Source: Candidatus Polarisedimenticolia bacterium (GTDB taxonomy: Bacteria; Acidobacteriota; Polarisedimenticolia; Gp22-AA2; AA152). From it: a DNA stretch of 64,000 bases. Under the pieces are notes generated by a model, which did not search any database, was not told the DNA's origin, and saw only the letters and a program-made list of their open reading frames with translations. This document shows positions 6,581 to 39,872 of this stretch, one piece after another. The stretch is from NCBI GenBank assembly GCA_036004685.1, contig DASYRE010000023.1, positions 4,305-68,304 of the forward strand. Direction: 5' to 3'. A program made the translations under genes and the position numbers. How positions within the stretch are numbered: the stretch's first letter is position 1; each line of letters begins with the position of its first letter.

Positions 6581-8254
6581 CTATCGGGGCGACACCTTCG
6601 ACAAGGCCGCGAGGCGAGCCGCCTCGAATTCGTCGCCCGCATTCCACTTCGGCATCTGCGGTGACTGGGCTACGTCCAGGCCGAGATAGAAGTCGAGCTG
6701 GAGATCCTGCACGGCGCCCCGGAGATCCCAGTCGGAGTGAATCTCGTCGCTCGGCTGGTGGTAGTCCGTGGATTCGTATTTGTCGTACTGCTCTTTTCCC
6801 CACCCCGCGGGCTTGCCGATGATCTCGAGACCCGACTCGAAATAGGCCGCCGGCACGCCGATCTTCGCCAGATTGAACTGATCGGAGCGGTAAAAGTACC
6901 CGCGATCGGGGAACTGGTCCGCCTTCACCACCCGGCCCTGCATCCTCGCGATCGCCTCGATCTTGCCGTCCAGGGTCGATTTCCCCTTGCCGATGAAGGT
7001 GAGGTCCCGAGCCGGGCCCCAGATCGAGATCCCGTCGATGTTGATCACGGCGGCCATCCGTCCCGGCTCGATCACAGGATGCTCCGCGAAGTATTTCGAG
7101 CCGAGGAGCCCTTGCTCCTCGGCGGCGACGGCGGCGAAAAGGATCGAGCGCTTCGGCTTCACCGAGAGCGCGTTGTAGGCGCGGACGAGGGTGATGAGGC
7201 TGGCGACGCCGCTGGCGTTGTCGAGCGCCCCGTTGTAGATCGCGTCCTCGCCCGCCTTGGCCCCTTCCTTCTTTCCAAGGTGATCGTGGTGGGCCATGTA
7301 CACCACCGCCTGCTTGGACGACTTGGGATCGGACCCGGGCAGGATTCCGAGGACGTTGGCCGTCTTCACGTGCCGGATCTTATTGGCCATTTCGAGCGAC
7401 AACCTGGTCCCCAGGAGCACGGGCCGAAAGTCCTTCTTCTGCGCCGCGGCTCTCAGCGCGTCCAGGTCCTTCCCCGAAAGCGCCGCCAGCCTCCTGCTGG
7501 CGTCTTCCGTCGCCCATCCGTTGAACGCGGTCGTCGGACCGCCTTCCGCCGGAATCTCGAACTGCTCTCCGGACCAGGAGGTCTGGACCACCTGCCACGG
7601 GTATCCGGCCGATTCGGTCGTGTGGATGATGATCGCCCCGGCCGCCCCCTTGGCGGCCGCCATCTCGAACTTATAGGTCCAGCGACCGTAGTAGAGCCTC
7701 GTCTTGCCCGCGAACAGCGCCGGATCCGCCGAGGGATCGTTGTTCATCATCAGAAGGACCTTCCCGCGCACGTCGACGTCCTTGTAGTCGTCCCAGCCGT
7801 ATTCGGGCGCGACGATCCCGTACCCGACGAAGACGACCTCGGCGTCGTGGACGCTCGAAGTCGCGGACTGGCCGCCCGAAACGCCGATGTATTCGTCGGA
7901 ATACTTGAGCGACAGGTGTTTTCCCGCGTTCTCGAACTGGATCGTCGGGGGCGCCCCGCTGTCGACCCCGACGAGCTCGAACTCCTGGAGCCACGATCCG
8001 CTGGGACCGGCCGGCCGCAGCCCTTCCGCCTCGAACTGGGTCGCGATGTAGGCCTGCGCGAGCCGGTCGCCGGTGGAGGCGGGGCCCCTTCCTTCCAGGA
8101 GATCGCCGGAGAGGAAGCGGATATGCCCGAGCAGCGTGTCGGCCCGGATCGACTGGGCCGCGCGCCGCGCATCGCTCGTGGGCTGATAGGTCGAGACGAC
8201 CGCGAGGGCCGCCGAAACCGGGAACGCGATGGCCGCCAGGATGATCTTCTTCAT
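6581..8254 (-). CDS. M28 family peptidase with PA domain (secreted aminopeptidase/carboxypeptidase)
   Basis: 557 aa. Signal peptide MKKIILAAIAFPVSAALAVV. M28 metal-binding blocks (HHDHLGK…, NGALDNASGVASLI, AAEEQGLLGS, …D…H). Strong GC3 bias. The opposite-strand ORF 6737..8260 rejected. Confidence 0.8.
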   Translation of the reverse strand: MKKIILAAIAFPVSAALAVVSTYQPTSDARRAAQSIRADTLLGHIRFLSGDLLEGRGPASTGDRLAQAYIATQFEAEGLRPAGPSGSWLQEFELVGVDSGAPPTIQFENAGKHLSLKYSDEYIGVSGGQSATSSVHDAEVVFVGYGIVAPEYGWDDYKDVDVRGKVLLMMNNDPSADPALFAGKTRLYYGRWTYKFEMAAAKGAAGAIIIHTTESAGYPWQVVQTSWSGEQFEIPAEGGPTTAFNGWATEDASRRLAALSGKDLDALRAAAQKKDFRPVLLGTRLSLEMANKIRHVKTANVLGILPGSDPKSSKQAVVYMAHHDHLGKKEGAKAGEDAIYNGALDNASGVASLITLVRAYNALSVKPKRSILFAAVAAEEQGLLGSKYFAEHPVIEPGRMAAVINIDGISIWGPARDLTFIGKGKSTLDGKIEAIARMQGRVVKADQFPDRGYFYRSDQFNLAKIGVPAAYFESGLEIIGKPAGWGKEQYDKYESTDYHQPSDEIHSDWDLRGAVQDLQLDFYLGLDVAQSPQMPKWNAGDEFEAARLAALSKVSPR

Positions 8255-10475: not shown

Positions 10476-11897
10476 TCAAGGCTGGGTCGTCCGGGTGGAT
10501 CCGAACTGGGAAAGCTCCGACTGGACCTTGGCCTCGTCACCCACCACCACGATCGTCTGGCTCCTGGAAGCATAGAAGTCCCGCCCAGCCTGCCGGATCT
10601 GCTCGACCGTGACGGCGTTCACTTTCCGCACGAAATCACCCAGCGCTTCCGGCGGCAGGCCATCTACCCAGTTGGTGGCCAGGGTCCCGGCGACGGCGCC
10701 CTGGATCTGGTTGCGCAGGAGGTAGAGGCCCCCCTGGTAGCGTTTCGCCTTGGCCACTTCCTCCGACGTCGGCACCGTGGCGCCCATCCGGTCGAGCTCA
10801 TAGAACATCTCCAACAGCGTGGCGGCGGTCACTTCATTGCGCACGTCGGCCCGCACCTGCAGGAGACCCCCCTCCTCGCGAGTCTGCACGCTGGAGTAGG
10901 CCCCATAGGAATATCCCTTGTCCTCCCGGATGTTGCGGGAGAGACGGCTCCCGAAGGCTCCGCCGAAAACGGTGTCGGCGACGAGCAGTGGGAAATACTC
11001 CGGGTCGGTCGCCGGCACCGTGGGCCGGCCGAGCATGATGAGCGACTGCACCGACCCGGGGCGGCTGACGACGAGGAGCTGCCGGGCCTTCGCCCCCGGT
11101 GAAGGCGGGGTCGGTGCGGGCGCCTCGCCCTGACCCTTCCAGCCGGCGAACACCTTGCCGATCGTCTTGCCGGTGGCGGCGGCGTCCAGGTCGCCCACAA
11201 CCACCAGGAGCGCCCGCTCTGGCCGGAACCGTCGCAAGAACTCGCGCTTCAGGATGCCGGGGGTGATCGCCGCGATCGTCTCGGGAGTGGCCGCGACGGT
11301 GCGGTAGGGGTGGTCATCGTAGACCGCCGCCGCAAAGGCCTTCTGGGCGAGGAACTCGGGAGTGGAGGCCTGGACCTCCAGGCCCTGCAGCGCGTTGGCT
11401 TTGGCAAGCTCGACTTCCTGGACCGGAAAGGAGGCGTTCCGCGCCACGTCCGCGAGAATCGTCAGCAACCGGGTGGAGCCGCTCGCGAGGCCTGCAACCG
11501 TGAGCTGGATCACGTCGGAGGTCGCATTGGTGGAGAGAGTGCCGCCGACCTCCTGCAGATCCTCGGCGATCTGCTTCGAGGTCCGAGCCGCCGTGCCCTC
11601 GTTCAGCGTGTCGGCGAGCGTGTCGGAGATCCCTTCCATCCCGCGCGGGTCGGAGGCCGTGCCGCCGCGCACCGTGAGGATCGCGGTGACCATGGGGAAA
11701 CCGGGGCGCTGGACCAGCCAGACCGTGAGCCCTTCCGGGAGCTTCGACGCCTTGATGGTGGGGACGGGCAGCGGCGAGTCGGGTCCGAAAGGCGGCAGCT
11801 CCTTGGGAAGTGGCTTCTCCTCACCGGCGAGGAGAATGGCCGGAAAAGCGGCCAGTGCGACCAACAGAACGGCAGGGACTAGAGCTGTCTTCTTCAT
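10476..11897 (-). CDS. M16 family peptidase, non-catalytic (inactive) subunit/domain partner
   Basis: 473 aa. Signal peptide MKKTALVPAVLLVALAAFPAILLAG. M16 fold blocks but no HxxEH zinc motif. 12 nt downstream of the active M16 gene on the same strand. Confidence 0.7.
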   Translation of the reverse strand: MKKTALVPAVLLVALAAFPAILLAGEEKPLPKELPPFGPDSPLPVPTIKASKLPEGLTVWLVQRPGFPMVTAILTVRGGTASDPRGMEGISDTLADTLNEGTAARTSKQIAEDLQEVGGTLSTNATSDVIQLTVAGLASGSTRLLTILADVARNASFPVQEVELAKANALQGLEVQASTPEFLAQKAFAAAVYDDHPYRTVAATPETIAAITPGILKREFLRRFRPERALLVVVGDLDAAATGKTIGKVFAGWKGQGEAPAPTPPSPGAKARQLLVVSRPGSVQSLIMLGRPTVPATDPEYFPLLVADTVFGGAFGSRLSRNIREDKGYSYGAYSSVQTREEGGLLQVRADVRNEVTAATLLEMFYELDRMGATVPTSEEVAKAKRYQGGLYLLRNQIQGAVAGTLATNWVDGLPPEALGDFVRKVNAVTVEQIRQAGRDFYASRSQTIVVVGDEAKVQSELSQFGSTRTTQP

Positions 11898-11909
11898 GGA
11901 CGTTGCCTC

Positions 11910-13310
11910 CTATCTCGGGTCGGCGGCAGGATCCGCGGCGGCGGTCTGCGGGGCCGGTTTGCGATCGACCACCGTCCGGTTGGCCGCCGTCAGATAGGTG
12001 GCCGCCACGCGCTGGAGGTCGGCCGAGGTCACCGTCTCGATCCGGCCGGGCAGCTCGTTGATGGACGCTGCGTTCCCGGTGAAGAGCTGGGCCAGGCAAA
12101 GGGCGGTGGAGCGGTTCAGGGGCAGCTCCAGCGTCGAGTAGAGATCGGCCGCCATCTTGGTCTTCGTCCGGGCCAGCTCGCCGGCCGGTACACCTTCCCG
12201 AGCCACCTTTTCGATCTCTCCGTTCATGGCGTCGACGACGGTCCGGGCGTCGGTGGTCGGTTTGTAGATGGCGAAGATGTCCAGCAGCGTCGGCCCGTTG
12301 TAGTCCCACGGCGTCCCGAGCGGCCAGTTGAGGCCTCCCTGGACGCTCAGGAGGATCTCTTTCCCTTTCACCAGCACCTGGTAGAAGCGGGAGGCTTCGC
12401 CGCCCACGAGCAAGTCGGCCAGGACGGCCGCGGGGACGTGGTCCCGGCTCCCGCGCGCCGGCATTTTCCAGGCCACCGCGATCCCCGGAACCCGGGCCAG
12501 GGGATCGGTCTGCTCCAGGGTCCGCTCGCCCTGGTTCATCGCCTCGGAGACGTCCGGAGGCTGCGGAGTCTGGCGCGCCGGAATTCCTCCAAAGTACTTC
12601 TCGACCTTTCCGAAAACCTCCGCCGGCTTGACGTCGCCCACGATGGCCAGAATGGCGTTGTTGGGCCCGTAGTAGCTCTTGAAGAACGCCTCGACGTCTG
12701 CGAGCTTCGCCGCGTCCAGATCCTCGAACGAGCCGTAACCGTCGTGCGAGTTCTCCCACTTGTCGAAGGCCTTGCCGGCCACGTCGGTCCAGAAGAAGAT
12801 GCCGTAGGGCCGGTTCTTGACGTTGACCCGGATTTCCTCCTTGACCACTTCCTGCTGGTTCTTGAGGTTCTTCTCGGAGAAATCCAGGGTCTTCATCCGA
12901 TCCGCCTCCAGCCACAGGATCGGATCCAGCGCCGAAACCGGCGCCGTCTCGATGTAGTTGGTGTAATCGTACCGGGTGGAGCCGTTGTTGACCCCGCCGC
13001 CGCCTTCGATCACCCGGTCGAAGACTCCCTTGGGGGCGTTGGGCGTTCCCTCGAACATCATGTGCTCGAAGAGATGGGCGAACCCCGTTCGCCCTTTCGG
13101 CTCGAGCCGGAACCCGATCCGGAATGCCAGGCAGAGACCGAAGGTCGGGGCGGAATGATCCTGTGAGACGACCACGGTCAGGCCGTTCGGAAACTTCTTG
13201 ACCTCGATGGGGATCTGCCAGCGTGCCGCGTGGGCCGCTGCCGGTCCCGCCGGGGCGAGAAGGACGCCGCCGAGCAGCAGGGGAAGTGCCAGCCAGGCTC
13301 TACGCATCAT
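11910..13310 (-). CDS. M16 family zinc peptidase (pitrilysin/insulinase-like), catalytic subunit
   Basis: Inverted zincin motif HxxEH present (GFAHLFEHMMFEGT) plus downstream E. Signal peptide MMRRAWLALPLLLGGVLLAPAGPAAAHA. ATG at 13310/13307 preceded by GGGAGG. ORF track start 13391 is probably too long. Confidence 0.75.
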   Translation of the reverse strand: MMRRAWLALPLLLGGVLLAPAGPAAAHAARWQIPIEVKKFPNGLTVVVSQDHSAPTFGLCLAFRIGFRLEPKGRTGFAHLFEHMMFEGTPNAPKGVFDRVIEGGGGVNNGSTRYDYTNYIETAPVSALDPILWLEADRMKTLDFSEKNLKNQQEVVKEEIRVNVKNRPYGIFFWTDVAGKAFDKWENSHDGYGSFEDLDAAKLADVEAFFKSYYGPNNAILAIVGDVKPAEVFGKVEKYFGGIPARQTPQPPDVSEAMNQGERTLEQTDPLARVPGIAVAWKMPARGSRDHVPAAVLADLLVGGEASRFYQVLVKGKEILLSVQGGLNWPLGTPWDYNGPTLLDIFAIYKPTTDARTVVDAMNGEIEKVAREGVPAGELARTKTKMAADLYSTLELPLNRSTALCLAQLFTGNAASINELPGRIETVTSADLQRVAATYLTAANRTVVDRKPAPQTAAADPAADPR

Positions 13311-13677
13311 GCCTCCCTGAGAAAAGCTTCGCCGATTCGTCAGCAAGTACGTCCCGAGATTCCGAAAGTTGCATGCATGACGACATCCCAATCGTTCAGA
13401 TCTGGAACATGGCTGGAAAACCCCCGAGGCCCCCTCCCGGGGAAATAGACGCCCGGGGGAGAGAACATCCGACCGTGAGAGCCGTATACGACACCGATCC
13501 GTTCAAGGCGCCGGAGATCCGTTCAAGGCACGCGGCGCGGCGCGCGGTGGGATCCTGCCGATCGCCCGGCCGTCACTCTCTCAAGGAGAGCCATTCCCGA
13601 TGCTCTACCCTCGATGTCCTGGTCGCGCCGTCCTCCTCCCCCGACTCGCCCGTCCCTGCGAAGGGGAGGCCGGGATC

Positions 13678-14871
13678 GTGACCTTCCTTCGCAGGAGCGC
13701 GTTCCCTCTCGGGCTCGGGCTGGTGCTCGCGGCTTCCGGGGCGGCGGTTCCAGCCGTCAGCTCGCCGCCGTCGACGCCGGAACTCCGCGTGACGCTCGTC
13801 AGGCCCCTGCCCGGCAGTCTGTCCGACTCCGGCGTAGCGGCCGTTCCCCTCGACGATGGTCTTCTGATCTCAGGATTCTCGGACGCCGGCGGCGTCGACT
13901 CAGGTCTCCTGCTGCGAGTCAGCGCCACGGGGGACGAGATCTGGCGGCGTGCCCTCCCGAGCGGAGGGGACGGTGCGATCTGGTGTCTCCGGGCGATCGG
14001 AGACGGCACGTTTGCGGGTGCCGGATGGGTGAAATCGTCCGCGGGGGATCTCGATGCGACGTTGATCCGCTTCGACGCGGCCGGGAAAGTGATCTGGCAG
14101 ACGTCCTACCCCGGACCTCATAAGGAGCGCCTCTGGTCGCTGGAGGTCGTGCCCCAGGGACTATTGGCCGCCGGTGAGGCGCTCGAGGCGGACGGGACGT
14201 CGAAAGCCCTCGTGATCCGGGCCGATCTCGACGGAAAGGAGATCGCGCGCGTCTCGACCGGGGGAGCGCCGGTGGAGCGCGTCTTCTCGATCCAGGCGCT
14301 GGCCGATGGCGGCTACGTGCTCGCGGGTCTGAGCGGGGGCGGCCCGCGTGAAGGGCCCGGGTACGACGCGAAGATCGCCCGCTACGATGCGGCCGGCAAG
14401 CCGATCTGGTCCTGCGTGTGGGGAGGGCCGGGGTTCGACGTGGGACACGACGTCCGGCGCCTCGAGGGCGGGGGATTCCTGGCAACGGGATACACGGATG
14501 CCGGCGCCGGGCGAGGCACCGACGTTTTCCTGCTCAAGCTGTCGGCCGAGGGGAACGTCGTCTGGTCGCGCACGTACGGCGGACCTCGTGACGACCGTGC
14601 GGTTCACCTGGCGCTCTTGCCCGGCGGCGGCGCAGCCATTGCCGGCTACGCGCAATCCGCTTCGGGCGATTGGGACATCGTCGCGCGAGGGACGTCCGGT
14701 GACGGCGAGGAGCTCTGGGCGCGGCGGTTCGGAGGAGCCGGGAACGAGCTGGGCCGGACGGTCGCCGCCACCGGCGACGGCGGCCTGATCGTCGTGGGTC
14801 ACTCGCAGAGCTACGGCCCGCTCGAGCGGATCCTCCTCGTCCGGCTGCATCCTGGGCGCGCCTCGCGCTGA
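13678..14871 (+). CDS. SBBP-type beta-propeller repeat protein (secreted)
   Basis: GTG at 13678 preceded by GGGGAGG (7-nt spacing). Signal peptide VTFLRRSAFPLGLGLVLAASGAA. Six-plus repeats of ~50 aa with G.T.s.G..D..l.k....G..vW..tYGG..d.g pattern (e.g. GYTDAGAGRGTDVFLLKLSAEGNVVWSRTYGGPRDD), as in PF06739-like repeats. Confidence 0.55.
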   Translation: MTFLRRSAFPLGLGLVLAASGAAVPAVSSPPSTPELRVTLVRPLPGSLSDSGVAAVPLDDGLLISGFSDAGGVDSGLLLRVSATGDEIWRRALPSGGDGAIWCLRAIGDGTFAGAGWVKSSAGDLDATLIRFDAAGKVIWQTSYPGPHKERLWSLEVVPQGLLAAGEALEADGTSKALVIRADLDGKEIARVSTGGAPVERVFSIQALADGGYVLAGLSGGGPREGPGYDAKIARYDAAGKPIWSCVWGGPGFDVGHDVRRLEGGGFLATGYTDAGAGRGTDVFLLKLSAEGNVVWSRTYGGPRDDRAVHLALLPGGGAAIAGYAQSASGDWDIVARGTSGDGEELWARRFGGAGNELGRTVAATGDGGLIVVGHSQSYGPLERILLVRLHPGRASR

Positions 14872-15009
14872 CGCCCCTCGCTCCGGCCCGAGTCCAGCTC
14901 TCCGGGGAGCAACGCCAGCCCGGCGTCCATCCCATCGCGGAACCCCCGGCCGCGGTGCGCTTGATCGGCAAACCCCGCCTGGAGAGCGATGTCGGCGAGC
15001 GCCGCCGCC

Positions 15010-15630
15010 TCACCAGGGCTTGGCAGCTTCCCGCCGCTTCAGGATCCCGTTGACGAGATCTTCCGCCAGGCCGGTGATGGCGGCCAGGCGCGGGATCGGA
15101 AGGTCGGGATGGGAGAGGACGAACTCCTCCTTCTCCTTGTAGCCGGGGGTTTCCTTGAGATAGAAGAGCCGCTCGAGCAGAGCGGTGATTTCGGAGCGCT
15201 GCGCGTCCGGGTCGTCCTTGCCGGCGCGAACCTCGAGGAGAACGTTCGTGCTCAGGTCGCGGGCGAAATTTCCCAGGGTGGTGTCGCGGTCGGGACCGAC
15301 GGGGAGCGGCGCCGCGGGGACGGAGCCCCGGATCTGCCGCGCGTCGTTCCGGCTGCGGTAGATGGTCAGCCTCACTTCCTTCCCGCCTTCGTTGGAGACA
15401 CGATCGAGGTACACCGTCTCCAGCTGGTAGAAGATGATGGGCAGCTCCCGCCCCCGATAGTGAATCCCTTGCTCGTTGACGACGTTGAAGGCGGCGAAGT
15501 AATCGGTGCCGCGCAGATCCATGCGAAGCTGATAGGTGTGGCCCGCGTACTCCGATTGCAGGTCCCGCACGACGCCCCGCTTGACCGCGAGCGCGGCTTG
15601 CGGAAAGAGGGCCAGCAGGCCGAGAGCCAT
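15010..15630 (-). CDS. Hypothetical secreted protein (downstream of REC-PilZ gene)
   Basis: High GC3. Signal-like MALGLLALFPQAALAVKRG if ATG at 15630 is used. Alternatively a TTG at 15717 overlapping the upstream stop (TTGA). No recognisable domain. Confidence 0.45.
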   Translation of the reverse strand: MALGLLALFPQAALAVKRGVVRDLQSEYAGHTYQLRMDLRGTDYFAAFNVVNEQGIHYRGRELPIIFYQLETVYLDRVSNEGGKEVRLTIYRSRNDARQIRGSVPAAPLPVGPDRDTTLGNFARDLSTNVLLEVRAGKDDPDAQRSEITALLERLFYLKETPGYKEKEEFVLSHPDLPIPRLAAITGLAEDLVNGILKRREAAKPW

Positions 15631-15713
15631 CGTGACGAGTCGAGCGGCGGTGCCCAAGGGCGTCCCCGGATGAGGTGATGAAGACCCGCCGATTATAGCC
15701 TGGGATTCGGGGC

Positions 15714-16433
15714 TCAAGAGCGCGGCGAGGAGCGCTGGATCTGGAGGACCTTCTCGATGCGGTCGACCGACTCCACGGGAAGCGTCAGGAATTGGATCCC
15801 GACGTCGTATTCCCCTTCCTCCGTGGGACTGGTTCGCCGAATCCTTCCCTGCGCCATGATCGAGCGCCGCCCTTTGTCGGGGTTGAACCGGAGGTTCACG
15901 AAGAAGCCGACCCGCAGAGGGGTCGGCGTGCGGACCAGCATCCCGCCGCTGCTGAGATCCATCGAGCGGCCGAGAACCTCGGACTTGACCGTCCCGTAGG
16001 AGATGGAGAGGACGACCGACAGGCGCTCCTCCTGGCGCTGGGCCACACCGAGATACTCGGCGACCCGCGGCAGAAGGCGCGAGAAATCAACGGGGGCCGG
16101 GCTGAAGAGGCTGCAGCCGGACTTCCGGCACGACACCTCGATCCTCGGCGGCTCCGGAGGCCCCACGATGATGACCGGGACCTTGACGAGCCGCTTGTCG
16201 GCCCGAAGCCTCCGGCACACCTGATCGCCCTTCATGACGGGCATCGAGTATTCGAGGAGAAGAAGACCAGGGTCCGAGGTCCCCGCGAGGGTGAGGACCT
16301 CGGACCCGGTGCGCGCCGACAAAAGGCGGATCGAGGTCCGCCTGAGGAAGGTCGGCGCCGGACCAAGGCTCGATAGGATTCCTTCCGTGATGATTAGAGT
16401 CCGACCGTTGGCCGGGCCCTCGCTCTCGGCCAT
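15714..16433 (-). CDS. Degenerate receiver (pseudo-REC) domain fused to a canonical c-di-GMP-binding PilZ domain
   Basis: ATG at 16433. Region 16434-16634 of the longer ORF has poor GC3 and is probably leader. REC fold recognisable, but the acidic pocket reads LIITEG (not DD) and the phospho-acceptor position reads LLLLEYSMPVMKG (Glu for Asp); conserved T/K positions also missing. C-terminal PilZ has RxxxR (RQEER) and DxSxGG (DLSSGGM) motifs. Confidence 0.7.
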   Translation of the reverse strand: MAESEGPANGRTLIITEGILSSLGPAPTFLRRTSIRLLSARTGSEVLTLAGTSDPGLLLLEYSMPVMKGDQVCRRLRADKRLVKVPVIIVGPPEPPRIEVSCRKSGCSLFSPAPVDFSRLLPRVAEYLGVAQRQEERLSVVLSISYGTVKSEVLGRSMDLSSGGMLVRTPTPLRVGFFVNLRFNPDKGRRSIMAQGRIRRTSPTEEGEYDVGIQFLTLPVESVDRIEKVLQIQRSSPRS

Positions 16434-16893
16434 GATGGTTTGCCTCGCGACGATCGCTTTCAGCAAAGGGCAGGCCAGCCACGGCCGATCAAGCGAAACT
16501 GCCTGAACTTCAAGCAGATAGAGAAAATGATCCGAGCTAAGGCAGGAAGGCAGGAGGGTGTCGGAGCCGATTCCGGCGAAGCGTCGCGCCGCGGAGCGCG
16601 GGAGGTCTTCTCGAAGCTTTCCTTTATCAATCACTTAGAGCATCCGTCTCACGCGGCGCGCTGAGACGCTCGTGAGACGCTCCGCACGTAACGTATACTC
16701 CACAAGGATTTGCCGGCATTCGCATGATCGCCTGATGAAGGAATCCGTCTCAGCAGCGGACGCCGGGCCTCGGAATGCGGCTCTACTTATTAATACGCCC
16801 GCCGCAGCGGTCGATCGGGAAGGGCGATGAAGGCGGCGGTCCGGCGGAAGCCGAGGCGCACGAGGGAAAGGTGATGCTTGGGGCGGAGGTCGA

Positions 16894-17415
16894 TCAGCGC
16901 GGAGCGGTGATGACGATGTGCGTGGGCGTTCCGTCGGGCTGGAAGCTGAACTCGATGCCGCTGTCGTAGCGGTACCAGCGATCGGCGTCGGCCCCGATGC
17001 CGCGCGAGCTGGGCTCGCCGAAAGCATGGAGGATTTCGCTCCGCTTGGAAGAGAGAGTGAGGTCGCCGTTCATCCGTCCCGGATACTCGCGATGGTCGTC
17101 CGTTCCCTCGTGATAGAGGAAGATGCTCTTGACCTTCCCTTCTTCCAGAAGGACGTCCAATCCGCGCGCGGGATAGAGAAGGTAGGCGGTCTCCTTCCGC
17201 TTCTCCCCGCTCACGCCGCTCGCGGTTTCCTGCTCGGGCTTCCCGAGCGCCTTTTCCACCGTGCTGCGGCTGTCCCCCAGCTTGATGCCGGCGGCGCCCA
17301 CGCCCGGCCGGATGTCGCCGCCGTACCGGCAGGCGGTCGCGAGACCGGACAGAGTCACGGCCAAGGACAGCGTCCGAAGCAATGTCGTCCGCGAGGGGCG
17401 AGCCCGATGAAGCAT
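16894..17415 (-). CDS. Hypothetical lipoprotein
   Basis: ATG at 17415 preceded by GGAGG. Signal peptide with lipobox-like LATAC (MLHRARPSRTTLLRTLSLAVTLSGLATACRYG). No known domain. Longer ORF start 17544 rejected (no RBS, overlaps tig promoter). Confidence 0.5.
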   Translation of the reverse strand: MLHRARPSRTTLLRTLSLAVTLSGLATACRYGGDIRPGVGAAGIKLGDSRSTVEKALGKPEQETASGVSGEKRKETAYLLYPARGLDVLLEEGKVKSIFLYHEGTDDHREYPGRMNGDLTLSSKRSEILHAFGEPSSRGIGADADRWYRYDSGIEFSFQPDGTPTHIVITAPR

Positions 17416-17525
17416 CCAGACCTCCAACGTCGATTGAATGAGCGTCATCTTATAGCACACCGCGCCCCGCGGGGGCAAAGCCGGAGAGGGACCTCCGCGA
17501 ACCCGGGATGCGCGCCGTCCGGGGT

Positions 17526-17554
17526 TTGCACCCCCGTGGAACATCTGCTAGCAT
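17526..17554 (+). promoter_or_regulatory. Putative sigma70-type promoter of the tig-clpP-clpX-lon operon (-35 TTGCAC, 17-nt spacer, -10 TAGCAT)
   Basis: TTGCAC 17526-17531 and TAGCAT 17549-17554, ~80 nt upstream of tig ATG (17637). Confidence 0.35.
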
Positions 17555-17636
17555 CCGAAGCCTCTCCGGAGTGATGCGTCCGGGACCTCCCCACGAACAA
17601 AAGCCGAGGCCCTCCCAGCACAGTCAGGGGCGCGCG

Positions 17637-18920
17637 ATGAAGGTGACGATCAACGAGCTCAACAGCGTGAAGCGCGGGATGGAGGTGGAGATTCCTCCCG
17701 AGGTCGTCGCCACGGAGATGGAGAAGGCCTACGAGACCTATCGGCGCAGCGCGCGGATTCCCGGGTTCCGGAAGGGGAAGATCCCGTTGTCGATCGTGAA
17801 GCAGCGTTACGGCAAGCAGGTGGAAGGCGAGGTTCTTTCCAACCTCATCGAGGAATTCGCCCACCGGGCGCTGGATGAGAAGAAGATCCAGCCGGTCCAC
17901 CGGCCCGTCCTGGATCAATATGACTACCGGCAGGGCGAGCCGCTGGTCTTCCGGACCACGTTCGAGGTGAAACCCGCGCTCGAGATCCGCGATTACCGGG
18001 GTCTTCCGATCGCCCGCCGCGAGGTCGCCGTCACCGACGCCATGGTCGAGGAAAGCCTCCAGGCCCTGCGCGAGCGCGCCGCCAAGTATTCGACCCTGGC
18101 CGATCGGAAGGCCGAGAACGGCGACGTCGTCGTCGGCGCGCTCTCGGGCCGGTTCGTGGAGGGGAAGGGAAAGGACTTCACGGGCGAAGCGGTGACCATG
18201 CGCGTGGGCTCGGACGACAACCACCCCGATTTCAACGCCGCGCTCCTCGGCCTCGCCGCCGGCGAGACGCGCACCTTCGACGTCAAATACCCGGACGACT
18301 ACCCTTCGGGGGTCCTCGCCGGCCGGCGGGTGGAATACTCCCTGGCCGCCCGGGAGGTGAAGGTCCGGGAGGTCCCCGCTCTGGACGACGAGCTGGCCAA
18401 GGAGCTGGGGGAGTTCCAGACTCTCGAGGAGCTCCGGAGCCACGTCCGGGAGGAGCTCCTGCGGCGGGAGTCGGCGGCGGAGGAGACGGAAGCCAAGGAC
18501 AAAATCCTGACGATCCTCGTCGATAAGCACGATTTTGAGGTTCCGGACGCGCTCGTCGAGGCTCAGCTCGACCGCCAGGTCGAGGATCTGGTCCGGCACC
18601 TTCTCCTCCAGGGGATCGATCCGCAGCATTCCGACGTCAACTGGAAGGAAGAGCGCGAAAAGGGGCGGCCCGCGGCAGTCAAGCGCGTCCGCGCGATGCT
18701 CATTCTGGAAAACATCGCGGCGGCGGAGTCGCTTTCCCCGGCGAGCGACGCGGTGAACGAGCGCTTGCGCCACGAAGCGAAGCGTCAAAACGTCAGCGTC
18801 GCGGATTTGAAAGAGCAACTCGCGCGAAAAGGCCATCTGGAGGGGCTTGAAAGGCAGTTGCAGAGGGAAATGGCGCTTGACTTTTTGTTGGTTCACGCTA
18901 CTATTAGTCGGGAGGGTTAG
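17637..18920 (+). CDS. tig: Trigger factor (ribosome-associated peptidyl-prolyl isomerase/chaperone)
   Basis: 427 aa. N-terminal ribosome-binding domain with GFRKGK signature ([10 protein letters not shown]), central FKBP-like domain, C-terminal arm. Conserved position immediately upstream of clpP-clpX. Confidence 0.9.
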
Positions 18921-18924
18921 CTCA

Positions 18925-19509
18925 ATGCCGCTTGTGCCGATGGTTGTTGAGCAAACCAACCGGGGCGAGAGAGCCTACGACATCTACTCGCGATTGCTCA
19001 AAGACAACATCGTATTCATCGGCAGCGGGATTGACGACAGTCTCTCGAACCTGGTAATTGCTCAGCTCCTGTACCTGGAAGCGGAAGACCCCGAGAAAGA
19101 CATACACCTTTACATCAATAGCCCGGGCGGATCGGTGACGGCCGGTCTGGCCATATACGACACGATGCAGTTCATCAAGCCGGACGTGTCGACGATCTGC
19201 ATCGGCCAGGCGGCGAGCATGGCGGCGGTCCTGCTTGGGGCCGGCACGACGAAGAAGCGCTTCGCGCTCCCGAACTCGAGGATCCTGCTGCACCAGCCGA
19301 TGGGGGACTTCTCGGGCCAGGCCACCGACGTGGACATCCACGCCAAGGAAATATTGCGGATTCGGGAACGGTTGAACGATATCATCCGGATTCACACGGG
19401 CCAGACGAAGGAGAAGATCGAGCGGGACACGGATCGGGACTACATCATGACGGCGGCCCAGGGTCTGGAGTACGGAATCATCGACCAGGTGATCGCGAAG
19501 CGGGACTGA
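18925..19509 (+). CDS. clpP: ATP-dependent Clp protease proteolytic subunit
   Basis: 194 aa. Catalytic triad context GQAASMAA (Ser), …LLHQP…(His), …D…; [17 protein letters not shown] block. RBS GGGAGGG upstream. Starts 5 nt after tig stop. Confidence 0.95.
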
Positions 19510-19539
19510 ACGGGACCCAAGGAGAAGCGGAGAAGGCGG

Positions 19540-20778
<1,239 letters not shown>

Positions 20779-20784
20779 AAACCG

Positions 20785-23208
20785 ATGACCCAGCCCGTCC
20801 TTCCTGGACAACACGAGAAGGTCGAACGTCTTCCGCTCGTCCCGCTCCGGGACGTGGTGGTTTTCCCCTACACGATGATCCCGTTCGTCGTCGGCCGCAA
20901 GACGTCGCTCACCGCGGTCGAGCGCGCTCTGGAGACCGACAAGAAGCTGTTCCTCTCGACCCAGCGCGACGCCCGGACCGACGAGCCGAAGCCCGACGAG
21001 ATCAACTACGTCGGGACGGTCGTCAACGTCGTCCAGAGCCTGAAGCTCCCGAACGGGAACATCAAGCTCCTCGTGGAAGGCGTCAGCCGCGGCAAGGTGC
21101 TCGACATCCAGGAAGCCGACGGCTATTTCGTCACGACGCTCGAGCCGATCGACGTCAAGCCCGAGATGACTCCCGAGATGGAAGTCGAGATGGGGAAGGC
21201 GGTCTCGCTGTTCGAGAAGTACGTCAAGCTCAGCCCGAACCTCCCCTACGAGACGATGATCTCGACGATCCGCGTCTCGGAGCCGGGGCGCCTCACCGAT
21301 ACGATCGCCGCCCACCTGCAGGTGGGCGTCGAAGAGAAACAGAACCTCCTCGAGACCTTCGATCCGAAGGAGCGCCTGACGATCCTGGTGGAGCTCCTGG
21401 AGGGGGAGATCGAGAAGCTGCGGGTCGACCGCCGGATCCACCAGCGCGTGAAGAAGCAGATGGAGCGGGCGCAGAAGGAGTACTACCTCAACGAGAAGAT
21501 CAAGGCGATCCAGCAGGAGCTGGGGCGCAAGGACGAGCGAGGCAACGAGATCGAGGAGCTCAAGGAGAAGATCGAGGCCGCCAAGATGCCGAAGGAGGCC
21601 CACGAGAAGGCGATCCAGGAGCTCAAGCGCCTCGAGGTCATGCCGCCCGTCTCCGCCGAAGCGACCGTCTCGAGGAACTATCTGGAATGGCTCCTCGCGG
21701 TCCCCTGGACCAAGAAGACGAAAGAGAACCGCGACATCGATCGCGCCGAGAAGATTCTCAACGCCGACCATTACGGGCTGGAGAAGATCAAGGAGCGCAT
21801 CCTGGAGTTCCTGGCGGTGCGCCGGCTCGTCCGGAACGTCAAGAAGGGGTCGATCCTCTGCTTCGTCGGCCCGCCCGGCGTCGGGAAGACGTCGCTCGCC
21901 CAGAGCATCGCGCGCGCCACCGGACGGCGGTTCGTGCGCCTGTCGCTCGGCGGCGTCCGGGACGAGGCGGAGATCCGCGGACACCGTCGGACCTACATCG
22001 GCGCCTTCCCGGGACAGATCATCCAGATGATGCGCAAGGCCGGGACGCGGAACCCGGTGTTCCTGCTCGACGAGGTCGACAAAATGAGCATGGACTTCCG
22101 CGGTGACCCCTCGGCGGCCCTGCTGGAGGTCCTCGATCCGGAGCAGAACTCGACGTTCGTGGATCACTATCTCGACACCGAGTTCGACCTGACCCAGGTG
22201 ATGTTCATCGCCACGGCGAACGTGCTGCATCCCGTGCCGGCGGCCTTGAAAGACCGGATGGAAGTCATCCGCCTCGCCGGATACACCCTCAACGAAAAGA
22301 TCCGCATCGCCAAGCAGTTCCTCATCAACAAGCAGCTGGAGGCTCACGGCCTCCAACCGAAGAGCATCACCTTCGAGGACGAGGCGATCCGCGACGTCAT
22401 CGAGAACTACACGCGTGAAGCCGGGGTGAGGAACCTCGAGCGGGAGATCGCGTCGATCGCCCGGAAGCTCGCCCGCCGCGTCGTCAAGGAGGGAAGGAAC
22501 TACGAGCACGTCGTGAAGTCGGGGGAGATAACGGACTTCCTGGGCGTGCCCCGCTACCGGCCGAAGGACCAGGAGAAGGCGAAGAAGAGCGAGATCGGGG
22601 TCGCCACCGGCCTGGCCTGGACGGAGGTCGGAGGCGAGATCCTGATGACCGAGGCGACGCTCATGAAGGGGCGCGGCAAGATCACGATCACCGGGAAGCT
22701 GGGAGACGTCATGCAGGAATCGGCTCAGGCGGCGCTCAGCTACGTCCGCTCCCGCGCCGAGAGCCTGGGGATCGACGACGAGTTCCACAAGCTGTACGAC
22801 ATCCACATCCACGTTCCCGAGGGGGCCATCCCGAAAGACGGGCCTTCCGCGGGGATCACGATCGCGACCGCCCTGGCATCGCTCCTGACGAGGACGCCGG
22901 TCCGCAAGGAAGTGGCGATGACGGGGGAGATCACGCTCCGGGGGCAGGTCCTGCCGATCGGCGGGGTGAAGGAGAAGGTGCTCGCGGCGCACCGCCTCGG
23001 CATCACCACCATCATCCTGCCGCGCGACAACGAGAAAGACCTCTCGGAGATCCCCGAGGACATCCAGAAGGAGCTCGAATTCCGTCTGGTCGAGAGCATG
23101 GACGAAGTCCTCAACATCGCCCTGGAAAAGGAGCCCAAGGGAACTCCCCCCATCGAAAAGATCGAGAAGGGGTTTGACAAGAGCCTTCCCGACAGCTCCG
23201 TTCATTAG
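20785..23208 (+). CDS. lon: Lon protease (LonA)
   Basis: 807 aa. LON N-domain, AAA+ Walker [10 protein letters not shown], Walker B LLDEVDK, C-terminal protease domain with catalytic Ser in [10 protein letters not shown] and Lys downstream. Confidence 0.95.
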
Positions 23209-23268
23209 GTTGTCCTGAAGCCACATTCCCAGACATGTTCTCATGCGTCCCGCCCGATGCGGTGAGCC

Positions 23269-23871
23269 GTGAGGGTAGTCACCTGCGAATTCCTGGTGGG
23301 AGCCGCTGTTCCGCGAGACTTTCCGCCCGCGACGATTCCTGAGGTCGCCTTTCTCGGTCGCTCCAACGTCGGAAAGTCGAGCTTGATCAACGCACTCTTG
23401 GGCCGGCGCGGGCTGGCCCGCACCAGCAGGACGCCGGGCCGGACGAGGCAGGTGAATTTCTTCCGGGTGAACGACGCCTGCTTGTTCGTGGACCTTCCCG
23501 GGTACGGATTCGCCCGCGTTCCGAAGGCGACGCGGGAGGAGTGGAAGGTCCTCGTGGAAGCCTTCTTGGATCGCCGGCCCCCGGAAAGGCTGGCGCTGCT
23601 CATCGTGGACGCCCGGCACTCCCCGTCGCCGCTCGACCGGGAGATGCGGAACTGGCTCGAGGACCGGAGAATGCCCTATCGGATCGCGGCCACGAAATGC
23701 GATAAGCTTAGCGCGAACGAACGGAACAGGAGTCTCAAAACCCACCTCAAGGAAATCCACCGACCGGATCTGCTGATCCCATGCTCCGCGGAGACGCGGG
23801 AAGGGATTCCCCGGATCTGGGCCGCCATCGACGGGATGCTGAATGAAACGACACCCTCGCCCGGAACGTAA
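23269..23871 (+). CDS. engB: Ribosome biogenesis GTP-binding protein EngB/YsxC/YihA
   Basis: GTG start. G1 [10 protein letters not shown]3 DLPGYG, G4 TKCDK. ~200 aa as typical. Confidence 0.85.
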
Positions 23872-23920
23872 CCCGAACTCCAACCCCTCCGCCCGTCCCG
23901 TCCGTTACGCGGACGACGAA

Positions 23921-25276
<1,356 letters not shown>

Positions 25277-33466: not shown

Positions 33467-33730
33467 CGCCAGCAGTCTACGCCGGGGAATGGGTCCGCCT
33501 CAAGGAGGCGCCGAGGATCGGGCCTTGGGCCCGAGGGGATGGGGACACCGACCTAATCATTGAGGAGCAGCCGACAATTCCGATGGGAGGAGGGAGAACG
33601 CCCGCATCTGCAACGAGGAAGCGAGTCGGCCCTCCGAGTCGGACGCATGAATCTGTTCCGGATGAAGCGCCGCCCCAGGATGTGCGGTACGGGGAGGTCA
33701 GGAGCTCGGTATCCGACGAACGATCTCGCA

Positions 33731-33750
33731 TCACGAAAATGTAATCGTGA
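33731..33750. promoter_or_regulatory. Palindromic candidate operator TCACGAAAATGTAATCGTGA in divergent promoter region
   Basis: 6-bp inverted arms TCACGA/TCGTGA around an 8-nt AT-rich spacer. Lies in the 440-bp region between divergent genes 30536..33466(-) and 33905..36088(+). Confidence 0.3.
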
Positions 33751-33904
33751 TCTCCTCCACGGGACGCGCTCGAAGGTTCCTTGGGGTCCATCATCCCTCA
33801 TCGGACTCGACACATGCACCTCGGAGCCTATATTGCAATTGCGGCCCTCCGTAAGAGGTGAAAAGCCTCGGGGCCCGCCATCACATCTTGTTCTTGAGGT
33901 GCTC

Positions 33905-36088: not shown

Positions 36089-36735
36089 GAAGCGAGGTCC
36101 CTTCAACAGAAACGGCCGCTCGTGGCCATCGATGGATTCACCTCCTGGCGATCGCCGTCTGGCTGGGAACCATCGTCTGGGGCATGGGGATCTTGCTGAG
36201 ATTCGCCTCGACGCCCGGCGATCCGGGTCATCCGCCGCTGCAATGGCCGGAAGGGAGCCGGATCCCAGCCGCGCACCGCCCGGCCTTGCTGATGGCCATT
36301 CATCCCCGCTGTCCCTGCACCCGCGCCAGCATCGAAGAGCTCCAGCAGGTGATGGCCAGGTGCCGCGGGCAAATGGAGGTGCACTTGATCGTCGTGGTGC
36401 CTTCGGCCGTCAGCGTGAGTTGGCTTGACACGGAGCTCGAACGGGAGGCGACCGCGATTCCGGGCGTCAACACCTACATCGATCGGGGCGGTATCGAAGC
36501 GCGCCGATTCGGCACCGCCACGTCGGGGCACACGCTCGTGTACAACGCCAGCGGGCACCTGGCGTTCAGCGGCGGGATCACACTGGCGCGCGGGCATGCA
36601 GGCGACAACTCGGGTCAGGACGCCGTCGTGGAGGCCATCCGCGAGGGAGGGCCGGCCCACGCCACCCACTCCGTCTACGGTTGTCCTCTTCACGATCCCC
36701 CGCCCGGCGCTCGGGCTTCGGAGTCCTACCGATGA
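36085..36735 (+). CDS. Membrane-anchored thioredoxin-fold (TlpA/ResA-like) protein with atypical C-P-C motif
   Basis: 216 aa. One N-terminal TM ([22 protein letters not shown]). [22 protein letters not shown] resembles WCxxC region of TlpA-like redoxins but with CxC. Later YGCPLH. ATGA overlaps at both ends couple it to flanking genes. Confidence 0.55.
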
Positions 36736-39700: not shown

Positions 39701-39872
39701 CGGCGCGACCCGAATGGCCTCGATGTCGATGGAGCTGGAGAAGCTGGGGCGAGCCGGCTCCGTGACCGGGAGCCAGGGGTGGATCACGCTTCTCGAGGCA
39801 GAGCTGGGCCGCGTCCGCAAAGCCTTGTCCAAGGAGCTGGACGGAGCCGGGACGCAGCGGAAGACGGCCTGA
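36732..39872 (+). CDS. Hybrid sensor histidine kinase: multi-TM sensor / PAS / HisKA / HATPase_c / REC / REC / Hpt
   Basis: 1046 aa. ~6 TM helices with conserved His ([13 protein letters not shown]). PAS ([18 protein letters not shown]…). H-box [13 protein letters not shown]1/G2 boxes ([24 protein letters not shown]). Two REC domains ([13 protein letters not shown]; [13 protein letters not shown]). Hpt with [11 protein letters not shown]. Confidence 0.85.

What the first reader, a model, noticed from the sequence alone, without database searches (positions are those of the whole stretch)
15714..16433. PilZ c-di-GMP receptor fused to a receiver domain whose phospho-acceptor Asp is replaced by Glu (constitutive-mimic pseudo-receiver)
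Seen: REC fold with LIITEG instead of the acidic DD pair and LLLLEYSMPVMKG where the phosphorylatable Asp normally sits; the conserved Thr/Lys positions are also not recognisable. The C-terminal PilZ domain keeps both c-di-GMP-binding motifs (RQEER; DLSSGGM).

Established: D-to-E substitutions mimic the phosphorylated state in many receivers; PilZ RxxxR/DxSxGG bind c-di-GMP.

Inference: a phosphorylation-independent, c-di-GMP-responsive adaptor. It sits in a three-gene minus-strand module with a lipoprotein (16894..17415) and a secreted hypothetical (15010..15630), a possible small envelope-associated signalling unit of unknown output.
Basis: partly seen in the sequence, partly recalled or inferred. 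Interest (0 to 1): 0.6.

Follow-up and report, generated by a model that had tools for sequence, protein, structure and literature searches.

The report
Phosphorylation-dead receiver fused to PilZ

Summary
Gene 15714..16433(-) encodes a 239-aa protein with a marginal receiver (REC) match and a solid PilZ match. Alignment to PleD puts Glu61 on the phospho-acceptor Asp. The Thr and Lys positions are Gly91 and Ala113, and the acidic pair is Glu17-Gly18. Both c-di-GMP motifs, RQEER and DLSSGG, are intact.

The "constitutive phospho-mimic" reading is not supported. Among 13 orthologues the acceptor column is Asp in 7 and Glu in 6. In more distant members of the same branch it is also Asn or Gly. 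Gly91 and loss of Lys are constant. The protein therefore belongs to a degenerate (pseudo-receiver) branch of a widespread, mostly canonical REC-PilZ family.

Two features are new here. A sigma-54 promoter (TGGC-N7-TTGC, 16463..16477) and upstream GTCTCA/TGAGAC inverted repeats are conserved across the branch. The gene is also divergent from tig-clpP-clpX in every related locus long enough to show the upstream side.

The downstream secreted orphan gene is conserved only in the nearer subclade. The lipoprotein gene lies beyond the promoter and is a separate transcription unit.

Verdict: an ordinary combination of known parts with an unknown output. Low to moderate interest.

The parts
15714..16433 (-). 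REC-like/PilZ gene, 239 aa (ATG at 16433, TGA at 15714-15716)
   Evidence: ORF. The start agrees with 12 orthologues. Pfam PilZ and Response_reg hits.
16050..16403 (-). Pseudo-receiver domain (residues about 11-128). Active-site quintet: Glu17 (16383-16385), Gly18 (16380-16382), Glu61 (GAA, 16251-16253), Gly91 (16161-16163), Ala113 (16095-16097)
   Evidence: Response_reg 31.5 bits against a 30.2 cut-off. PleD alignment. MAFFT with CheY and PleD. The AF2 model has (beta-alpha)5 order but low confidence. This half is as conserved among orthologues as the PilZ half, 0.81 against 0.79.
15750..16040 (-). Canonical PilZ domain (residues 132-228). RxxxR at 16023-16037 and D-h-S-x-x-G at 15942-15959. 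A C-terminal helix covers residues 220-235.
   Evidence: PilZ 55.8 bits. Motifs invariant or nearly so in orthologues. Foldseek matches the PilZ domains of BcsA, Alg44, PA4608, PP4397 and MotI.
16463..16477 (-). Sigma-54-type promoter TGGCCTGCCCTTTGC (-24 GG, -12 GC). Its 3' end lies 30 nt upstream of the ATG.
   Evidence: The TGGC and TTGC columns are invariant in the alignment of 5 loci. The same pattern sits 28-43 nt upstream of the gene in L001-L006 and L019/L020 and in L028. The sister group has GGCAC-N5-TTGC or AGGTAC-N5-TTGC at -31 to -87. Only 3 matches occur in the whole window, with 1.6 expected.
16645..16752 (-). Four copies of CGTCTCA/TGAGACG (16645-16651, 16662-16668, 16673-16679, 16746-16752), including the inverted repeat GTCTCA-N10-TGAGAC. 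Putative binding sites (UAS) for an unidentified enhancer-binding protein, 170-290 nt upstream of the promoter.
   Evidence: Repeats located. There are 3-6 hexamers per 470 nt upstream region in 10 loci, against 0.07 expected. The inverted repeat occurs once in the 64-kb window, and in 13 related loci only upstream of this gene. Stem sequences are conserved without covariation, which favours a DNA site over an RNA hairpin (inference).
15010..15660 (-). Downstream gene for a secreted protein of about 190 aa (signal peptide ...ALA/VKR) with no known family or fold. The start is ATG 15630 or an upstream TTG. Probably co-transcribed.
16894..17415 (-). Upstream gene for a small probable lipoprotein (173 aa) with two BamE/SmpA-like 'G..LG.P' motifs. 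Conserved neighbour, but a separate transcription unit.
   Evidence: Weak BamE, CAP_assoc_N and CdiI_5 hits only. Orthologues are 59-62% identical. It is separated from the REC-PilZ gene by the promoter region. No such gene is called in L001, and it is absent from the sister-group loci.
17637..25276 (+). Divergent housekeeping cluster tig-clpP-clpX-lon-engB-rho. This is the conserved genomic anchor of the REC-PilZ gene.
   Evidence: ORFs. The same order is seen in L001-L005, L019/20, L007, L021, L024 and L026/27. The canonical relative P0047 is not near tig.

Best explanation
The gene encodes a cytoplasmic two-domain c-di-GMP effector. Its C-terminal half is a canonical PilZ domain. Its N-terminal half descends from a response-regulator receiver but has lost the phosphotransfer chemistry, which makes it a pseudo-receiver.

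Proposed mechanism:
1. Shown from sequence: the gene is preceded by a conserved sigma-54 (-24/-12) promoter and conserved GTCTCA/TGAGAC inverted repeats. Transcription is therefore probably switched on by an unidentified enhancer-binding protein. In the nearer subclade the gene for a secreted orphan protein is probably co-transcribed.
2. Inferred from intact motifs: c-di-GMP binds R133xxxR137 and D159-L-S-x-x-G164.
3. Inferred by analogy with YcgR/PlzD/PP4397-type proteins: the RxxxR motif lies directly in the 8-residue linker after helix alpha-5 of the receiver-like domain, so ligand binding re-orients the two domains.
4. Inferred: the receiver-like domain is as conserved as the PilZ domain but cannot be phosphorylated. 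It acts as a docking or dimerisation surface whose availability is set by c-di-GMP, not by a kinase.

Glu61 is one of several tolerated residues at a position that no longer has a catalytic role. The target of the protein is unknown.
For: - Domain assignment and residue mapping.
- PilZ motifs invariant in 13 orthologues.
- Acceptor column D in 7, E in 6. It is N, G, D or E in the sister group, while Gly at the Thr position and loss of Lys are constant.
- On an NJ tree all these proteins form one clade, next to relatives that mostly keep the canonical D-D...D...T/S...K. 29 of 70 relatives have the full quintet.
- The REC half and the PilZ half are equally conserved, 0.81 against 0.79.
- Sigma-54 promoter and repeats conserved in all loci of the clade, and absent upstream of two canonical relatives.
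- Literature: REC-PilZ fusions have been noted since the first description of PilZ (10.1101/814665). Glu is the commonest replacement of the phospho-Asp, 26% of aspartate-less receivers, and alone is often insufficient for activation (PMC4395418). Pseudo-receivers are several percent of about 2 million receivers (PMC12632262).
Against: - No binding, phosphorylation or expression data exist.
- The Response_reg score is barely above the cut-off, and the AF2 model of the receiver-like half is poor (pLDDT 61, residues 1-56 below 50). The fold assignment rests mainly on sequence alignment.
- Seven orthologues keep an Asp, so weak or unorthodox phosphorylation in those cannot be formally excluded.
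- Some PilZ domains with intact motifs bind c-di-GMP weakly. For PixA, binding was not needed for the motility phenotype (PMC8316039).
- The sigma-54 assignment is by consensus and conservation only. rpoN and the activator are not in the window.
Confidence: 0.7

Rival explanations
1. One reading: Glu61 is an adaptive phospho-mimic that locks the receiver in the 'on' conformation, so the protein is a constitutively active response regulator gated only by c-di-GMP.
For: Glu sits exactly on the acceptor position. Asp-to-Glu activates some receivers, such as NtrC and CtrA, as cited in PMC8316039 and PMC4395418.
Against: - Glu is not conserved: D in 7 and E in 6 of the close orthologues, intermixed on the tree, and N, G or D in the sister group.
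- The Thr/Ser and Lys that couple the acceptor site to the alpha4-beta5-alpha5 face are missing in every member, so the usual route for a mimic to act is absent.
- Asp-to-Glu alone is often insufficient even in intact receivers (PMC4395418).
Confidence: 0.1
2. The domain is still a working, if atypical, receiver. Asp-bearing orthologues are phosphorylated by an orphan kinase, and the window's Glu variant is a recent loss or gain of function.
For: Seven of 13 orthologues keep Asp at the acceptor position and an acidic residue at the first position of the acidic pair. Hybrid histidine kinases are plentiful in the window.
Against: - The second acidic residue (Gly18), the Thr (Gly91) and the Lys (Ala/Ser/Val/Cys/Gly/Thr) are lost in all 13 orthologues, whether they carry D or E.
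- Repeated D/E exchange between orthologues 64-97% identical to the window protein argues that the difference is functionally neutral.
- No kinase gene is adjacent in any locus of the nearer subclade.
Confidence: 0.05
3. The receiver-like half is an inert evolutionary remnant, and the protein works like a stand-alone PilZ protein.
For: The REC HMM score is marginal, and Pfam does not detect REC at all in some relatives (P0011, P0013, P0040, P0053, P0061).
Against: - The REC half is as conserved among orthologues as the PilZ half (0.81 against 0.79).
- Invariant loop motifs (Y62, P65, D70, 'VGPPEP', C102, C107) are kept down to 34% overall identity.
- This pattern indicates purifying selection on a function.
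Confidence: 0.08
4. The protein is a c-di-GMP-gated adaptor or regulator of the ClpXP or Lon proteases, or of trigger factor, encoded next door. Known parallels are the receiver-containing ClpXP adaptors RssB, CpdR and the c-di-GMP-binding PopA (from general knowledge).
For: The gene is divergent from tig-clpP-clpX(-lon) in every locus of the clade long enough to show it. REC-PilZ identity falls to about 30-34% and the other neighbours change. A canonical relative is not near tig.
Against: - All these loci may come from one lineage. The only named one is an Acidobacteriota MAG.
- ClpX of L007 and of the window look nearly identical by eye (not computed), so shared ancestry of gene order explains the adjacency.
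- The gene has its own sigma-54 promoter, not one shared with tig.
- One clade member, P0046, lies on a 2.9-kb contig with a different upstream gene.
- No direct evidence of interaction exists.
Confidence: 0.07

Closest known systems
REC-PilZ response regulators (fusion noted in the original PilZ description; 10.1101/814665); about 70 two-domain relatives of 223-275 aa found here
   Same: Same domain order and the same size of about 235 aa. The RxxxR motif sits in the inter-domain linker. The same three cysteines are present in the REC half.
   Different: Most of those relatives keep the D-D...D...T/S...K phosphorylation residues. The window's branch has lost Thr, Lys and one acidic residue, and varies at the acceptor. 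None of these relatives, to my knowledge, has been characterised experimentally.
PixA of Myxococcus xanthus (PMC8316039)
   Same: A small cytoplasmic protein made of one PilZ and one receiver domain. It binds c-di-GMP in vitro and has no neighbouring kinase.
   Different: The domain order is reversed (PilZ at the N-terminus, REC at the C-terminus). Its receiver has all the phosphorylation residues (Asp180), and genetics suggests it is regulated by phosphorylation.
Aspartate-less / pseudo-receiver domains (PMC4395418; PMC12632262), e.g. ChxR (Glu at the acceptor), FrzS, RitR
   Same: A receiver-type HMM match that lacks the phosphotransfer residues. Glu at the acceptor position is the commonest such replacement (26%). 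The first acidic residue is often kept and the second lost, as here.
   Different: Those that have been studied are mostly fused to DNA-binding or coiled-coil outputs. A PilZ partner was not mentioned in either review (the term 'PilZ' is absent).
YcgR / PlzD (VCA0042) / PP4397 / MotI two-domain PilZ proteins
   Same: The C-terminal PilZ has RxxxR at the domain junction. The PilZ half of the model matches these structures. The likely mechanism is ligand-driven re-orientation of the domains.
   Different: Their N-terminal domain is a PilZN/YcgR-N beta-barrel, not a receiver fold.
PleD receiver 1 (closest solved sequence, E = 5e-7)
   Same: 89 residues align without gaps, including the 'LLD..MP.MDG' segment and the Cys in helix alpha-3.
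   Different: PleD has the full phosphorylation quintet and a GGDEF output domain.

Membership tests
Response-regulator receiver domain (PF00072), functional | HMM match above Pfam gathering score / (beta-alpha)5 fold | tested here: met
   31.5 bits against a 30.2 cut-off, so only just met. The AF2 secondary-structure order is b-a-b-(a)-b-a-b-a-b-a, but with low confidence. Foldseek finds DivK, PleD and RR468 for this half with poor rmsd.
Response-regulator receiver domain (PF00072), functional | Phospho-acceptor Asp at the end of beta-3 | tested here: not met
   Glu61 aligns with PleD Asp53 and CheY Asp57.
Response-regulator receiver domain (PF00072), functional | Acidic pair after beta-1 (CheY Asp12, Asp13) for Mg2+ binding | tested here: not met
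   The pair is Glu17-Gly18, so only the first acidic residue is kept.
Response-regulator receiver domain (PF00072), functional | Thr/Ser at the end of beta-4 and Lys at the end of beta-5 | tested here: not met
   Gly91 is invariant in 13 orthologues. The Lys position is Ala113, and A, S, V, C, G or T in the orthologues.
Pseudo-receiver / aspartate-less receiver (ALR) | Recognised as a receiver by HMM but lacking the acceptor Asp and/or other catalytic residues | tested here: met
   Definitions are taken from PMC4395418 and PMC12632262. Strictly, the Asp-bearing orthologues are pseudo-receivers but not ALRs.
Canonical PilZ domain (PF07238) | HMM match above gathering score | tested here: met
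   55.8 bits against a 22.5 cut-off, covering profile positions 2-98 of 102.
Canonical PilZ domain (PF07238) | RxxxR and [D/N]-h-S-x-x-G c-di-GMP motifs | tested here: met
   R133QEER137 and D159LSSGG164. R133, R137, L160 and G164 are invariant and S161 nearly so. Motif definition from 10.1101/814665.
Canonical PilZ domain (PF07238) | Six-stranded beta-barrel followed by a C-terminal alpha-helix | tested here: met
   The AF2 model has strands 137-217 and helix 220-235, with pLDDT about 70-84 in this half. Foldseek hits to the PilZ domains of BcsA, Alg44, PA4608, PP4397 and MotI have E from 7e-5 to 1e-3.
Canonical PilZ domain (PF07238) | Actual binding of c-di-GMP | not testable with these tools
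   Needs DRaCALA, ITC or MST on purified protein.
TIGR02266 (Myxococcus-type paralogous PilZ family) | Score above the NCBIfam cut-off | tested here: not met
   52.9 bits against a 68.7 cut-off.
PixA-type PilZ-REC regulators | N-terminal PilZ, C-terminal receiver with an intact Asp | tested here: not met
   The domain order here is REC-like then PilZ, and the acceptor is Glu. PixA architecture from PMC8316039.
Sigma-54-dependent gene | -24 GG / -12 GC elements with TGGC-N7-TTGC spacing, just upstream of the gene and conserved in orthologous loci | tested here: met
Sigma-54-dependent gene | rpoN and a cognate enhancer-binding protein in the genome; transcription dependent on them | not testable with these tools
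   The window holds no bEBP signature motif (GAFTGA, ELFGH or GESGTGK) in any of the six frames. An NtrC-type activator lies 5 kb away in the related loci L026 and L027.

The most novel reading that the evidence does not exclude
The phosphorylation-dead REC-PilZ protein is a sigma-54-induced, c-di-GMP-gated adaptor for the ClpXP or Lon proteases encoded divergently next to it. Its receiver-like domain would dock onto the protease, as in RssB, CpdR and PopA. Its conserved Cys73/Cys102/Cys107 triad might add a redox or metal input.
Probability: 0.06. Interest if true: 0.7.

Novelty: new member of a known kind. Interest (0 to 1): 0.27.

Why it matters
If the main reading is right, this is one more c-di-GMP effector with an unknown target, in a poorly studied lineage that probably belongs to Acidobacteriota. 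It also gives a clean natural example of a receiver domain moving from phosphorylation control to being a passive partner of another sensor domain: canonical relatives, intermediate forms and fully degenerate forms can be compared side by side.

The practical gain from this work is regulatory. The conserved sigma-54 promoter and the GTCTCA-N-TGAGAC repeats give a concrete, testable handle on when the protein is made and on which enhancer-binding protein controls it. The constant position next to tig-clpP-clpX-lon gives one specific, if weak, hypothesis for the output.

Tried and rejected
- Rfam found no riboswitch or other RNA family in 14800..17700, even at E up to 1. The whole window holds only one tRNA.
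- The structure prediction of the REC-PilZ protein from 13 sequences was poor (pLDDT 61). It was therefore used only for secondary-structure order and for the PilZ half.
- The afdb50 fold library was unavailable.
- The single GTDB genome scan gave only one full-length relative (L007). The other 11 hits were receiver-only matches.
- A first attempt to map HMM columns was off by one register and was discarded, then redone.
- A literature search for the TGAGAC motif with sigma-54 found nothing relevant.
- A cluster look-up gave no source names for the NCBI relatives.
- A scan of all six reading frames of the window for bEBP, GGDEF and HD-GYP signature motifs found nothing.
- I considered that the conserved inverted repeat could be an RNA hairpin in a long leader. 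I rejected this as less likely because the arms are conserved in sequence with no compensatory changes, and because the repeat lies upstream of the conserved promoter.

Full report
**1. What is there**

The minus-strand ORF ending at 15714 can be read from a GTG at 16634 (306 aa) or from the ATG at 16433 (239 aa). Twelve orthologues, 57-97% identical, all begin at the position of the ATG. The extension would also run over a conserved promoter (section 5). The 239-aa reading of the first-stage reader is therefore correct.

Pfam finds a solid PilZ domain: 55.8 bits against a 22.5 cut-off, residues 132-228. It also finds a receiver domain that only just passes: 31.5 bits against 30.2, residues 29-120. 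NCBIfam gives only sub-threshold matches, to TIGR02266 (a PilZ family) and to PleD, PhoB and MtrA receivers.

**2. The active-site residues**

The best solved relative is receiver 1 of PleD, with 89 residues aligned without a gap.

| CheY/PleD position | Aligned segment in the window protein | Residue here |
|---|---|---|
| Acceptor Asp (PleD Asp53) | LLLLEYSMPVMKG on IILLDVMMPGMDG | Glu61 |
| Thr at end of beta-4 | VIIVGPP on VVLITAL | Gly91 |
| Lys at end of beta-5 | LFSPAP on FLTKPI | Ala113 |
| Acidic pair (CheY Asp12-Asp13) | from the MAFFT alignment | Glu17-Gly18 |

A MAFFT alignment with CheY, PleD and 82 relatives gives the same answer. The aromatic switch position (CheY Tyr106) is kept as Phe110 by my reading of the and alignments.

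The PilZ motifs R133QEER137 and D159LSSGG164 fit the published RxxxR / [D/N]hSxxG definition (10.1101/814665). They are conserved in the orthologues.

**3. Is the Glu special?**

No. In the 13 close sequences the acceptor column is Asp in 7 and Glu in 6. On a neighbour-joining tree the Glu-bearing sequences fall in three separate groups among Asp-bearing ones, so the exchange happened repeatedly.

A profile search of 1.84 billion representative proteins returned about 70 two-domain proteins of 223-275 aa with the same REC-PilZ layout. Of 70 relatives outside the close orthologue set, 29 have the complete canonical quintet. Many others differ only by Thr to Ala.

The window protein, its orthologues, P0039/P0040 and a sister group (L007, P0042, P0046, P0053, P0061, P0141, P0154, P0180) form one clade. 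Every member of that clade has a degenerate quintet: Gly at the Thr position in all but two, Lys lost, and the acceptor as D, E, N or G.

The receiver was therefore disabled once, at the base of this branch. The former acceptor has since drifted among small polar and acidic residues. This is the behaviour of a pseudo-receiver, not of a selected phospho-mimic.

The literature agrees that this is ordinary. Glu is the most frequent replacement of the phospho-Asp (26% of aspartate-less receivers) and alone is often not activating (PMC4395418). Pseudo-receivers make up several percent of about 2 million receivers (PMC12632262).

**4. The receiver-like half is still under selection**

Mean column conservation among the orthologues is 0.81 for residues 11-128 and 0.79 for the PilZ half. 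Several features are kept down to 34% overall identity in an Acidobacteriota MAG (L007):
- the loop after beta-4, 'VGPPEP';
- the segment 'Y.MP...GD.VCR';
- the cysteines Cys73, Cys102 and Cys107.

The domain therefore does something, most plausibly docking or dimerisation, as in other pseudo-receivers. This is inference.

RxxxR begins five residues after the predicted end of helix alpha-5. Ligand binding at the domain junction, with re-orientation of the two halves as in YcgR/PlzD/PP4397-type proteins, is the most economical mechanism. This is analogy, not a test. The PilZ half of the model matches those structures. No solved structure covered both domains at once.

**5. Regulation (new)**

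The 460-nt gap upstream of the gene has no Rfam match. Aligning it with four orthologous gaps shows invariant TGGC and TTGC blocks seven bases apart. The sequence is TGGCCTGCCCTTTGC at 16463..16477(-), and its 3' end lies 30 nt before the ATG. This is the sigma-54 -24/-12 arrangement.

- The pattern is found only three times in the window, with 1.6 expected by chance.
- It sits 28-43 nt upstream of the gene in L001-L006 and L019/L020, and also in L028.
- The sister-group loci carry even better matches, GGCAC-N5-TTGC(A/T), at -31 to -87.
- Two canonical relatives have no such element.

Further upstream, the hexamer GTCTCA/TGAGAC occurs 3-6 times per 470 nt in all ten loci that had enough upstream sequence, against 0.07 expected. 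The inverted repeat GTCTCA-N(8-24)-TGAGAC occurs once in the 64-kb window. In 13 related loci it is found only upstream of this gene, once or twice per locus.

The arms are conserved in sequence with no compensatory change, and they lie upstream of the promoter. I therefore read them as binding sites for an enhancer-binding protein, not as an RNA hairpin (inference). No activator gene is in the window. An NtrC-type activator with a GAF-containing kinase lies 3-5 kb away in L026 and L027.

**6. Neighbours**

The gene right behind (15010..about 15650) encodes a protein with a signal peptide (...ALA/VKR). It has only 25 homologues, all at least 56% identical, and no family, PDB or fold match. It follows the REC-PilZ gene in the nearer subclade, including P0039 and P0040. 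In the sister group no related gene follows.

The small probable lipoprotein upstream (16894..17415) is conserved in the same subclade. It lies beyond the promoter and the repeats, so it is a separate transcription unit. In one locus, L001, no such gene is called.

The one association seen in every locus of the clade that extends far enough upstream is the divergent tig-clpP-clpX(-lon-engB-rho) cluster. One short contig has a different upstream gene, and a canonical relative is elsewhere. Because the loci may all belong to one lineage, this may be inherited gene order. I treat a link to proteolysis only as the most novel reading that is not excluded.

**7. Comparison with what is known**

- REC-PilZ fusions were listed in the first description of PilZ (10.1101/814665).
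- The only characterised small PilZ-plus-receiver protein I found, PixA of Myxococcus xanthus, has the opposite domain order and an intact Asp180 (PMC8316039).
- Neither pseudo-receiver review mentions PilZ.
- The protein is thus a member of two known kinds at once (pseudo-receiver and PilZ effector), in a combination that has not been studied but that nobody would find surprising.

**8. Verdict**

Interest is low to moderate, raised slightly by the well-conserved sigma-54 promoter and repeat architecture and by the constant position next to tig-clpPX-lon.

Noticed in passing
window 33560..36088 (+), with 36681..45588 (+): A type II/IV secretion ATPase (T2SSE) has an MshEN domain, which is a known c-di-GMP-binding module, and a canonical C-terminal receiver domain. 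It is followed by three large hybrid histidine kinases (PAS-HisKA-HATPase-REC-REC-Hpt; a double kinase with REC; GAF-GAF-HisKA-HATPase-REC). This would be a second c-di-GMP receptor candidate in the window.
   Followed up: no
window 16215-16217, 16128-16130, 16113-16115 (codons of Cys73, Cys102, Cys107): Three cysteines in helix alpha-3, helix alpha-4 and strand beta-5 of the receiver-like half are invariant in the orthologues. They are kept in about 96%, 93% and 73% of 70 REC-PilZ relatives. In 253 receiver domains of multidomain proteins found by the same profile they occur in only 27%, 13% and 12%. This is a family signature of unknown meaning: possibly redox or metal sensing, or simply buried small residues.
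   Followed up: partly
window 16434..16634 (-): A public gene call for this gene (P0001, 306 aa, 'CheY-like chemotaxis protein') starts at the GTG at 16634 and so runs across the sigma-54 promoter. The 67-residue extension has no counterpart in any orthologue.
   Followed up: yes
[not shown]
   Followed up: partly
window 18922..23883 (-): A 1653-aa ORF lies antisense to clpP, clpX and lon. It is a shadow ORF of the kind common in GC-rich DNA, not a gene.
   Followed up: no
L026 10100..13758 and L027 10410..13789; L007 8499..12035: In sister-group loci a kinase lies 2-5 kb downstream of the REC-PilZ gene. In L026 and L027 it is a GAF-GAF histidine kinase followed by an NtrC-type sigma-54 activator, which is a candidate for the enhancer-binding protein that acts on the GTCTCA/TGAGAC repeats. 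In L007 only a large kinase-like ORF was seen, judged by eye and not scanned against Pfam.
   Followed up: no
window 16618..16634 and 16510..16530 (-): Two copies of a conserved 'TCTCTAA.T..TTGA' element lie between the repeats and the promoter. Read on the other strand, the first fits the IHF consensus WATCAANNNNTTR (TATCAATCACTTA). This would fit a looped sigma-54 promoter architecture. It was judged by eye only.
   Followed up: no
window 10476..13391 (-), 13600..14871 (+), 1375..3600 (+), 6581..8254 (-): The surrounding region appears rich in secreted hydrolases. Pfam identifies an S9 prolyl oligopeptidase and an M28 peptidase. The beta-propeller repeat protein at 13600..14871 has only weak DUF5122 and delta-60 repeat matches. 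The two ORFs at 10476..13391 look like M16-type peptidases by eye but were not scanned.
   Followed up: no
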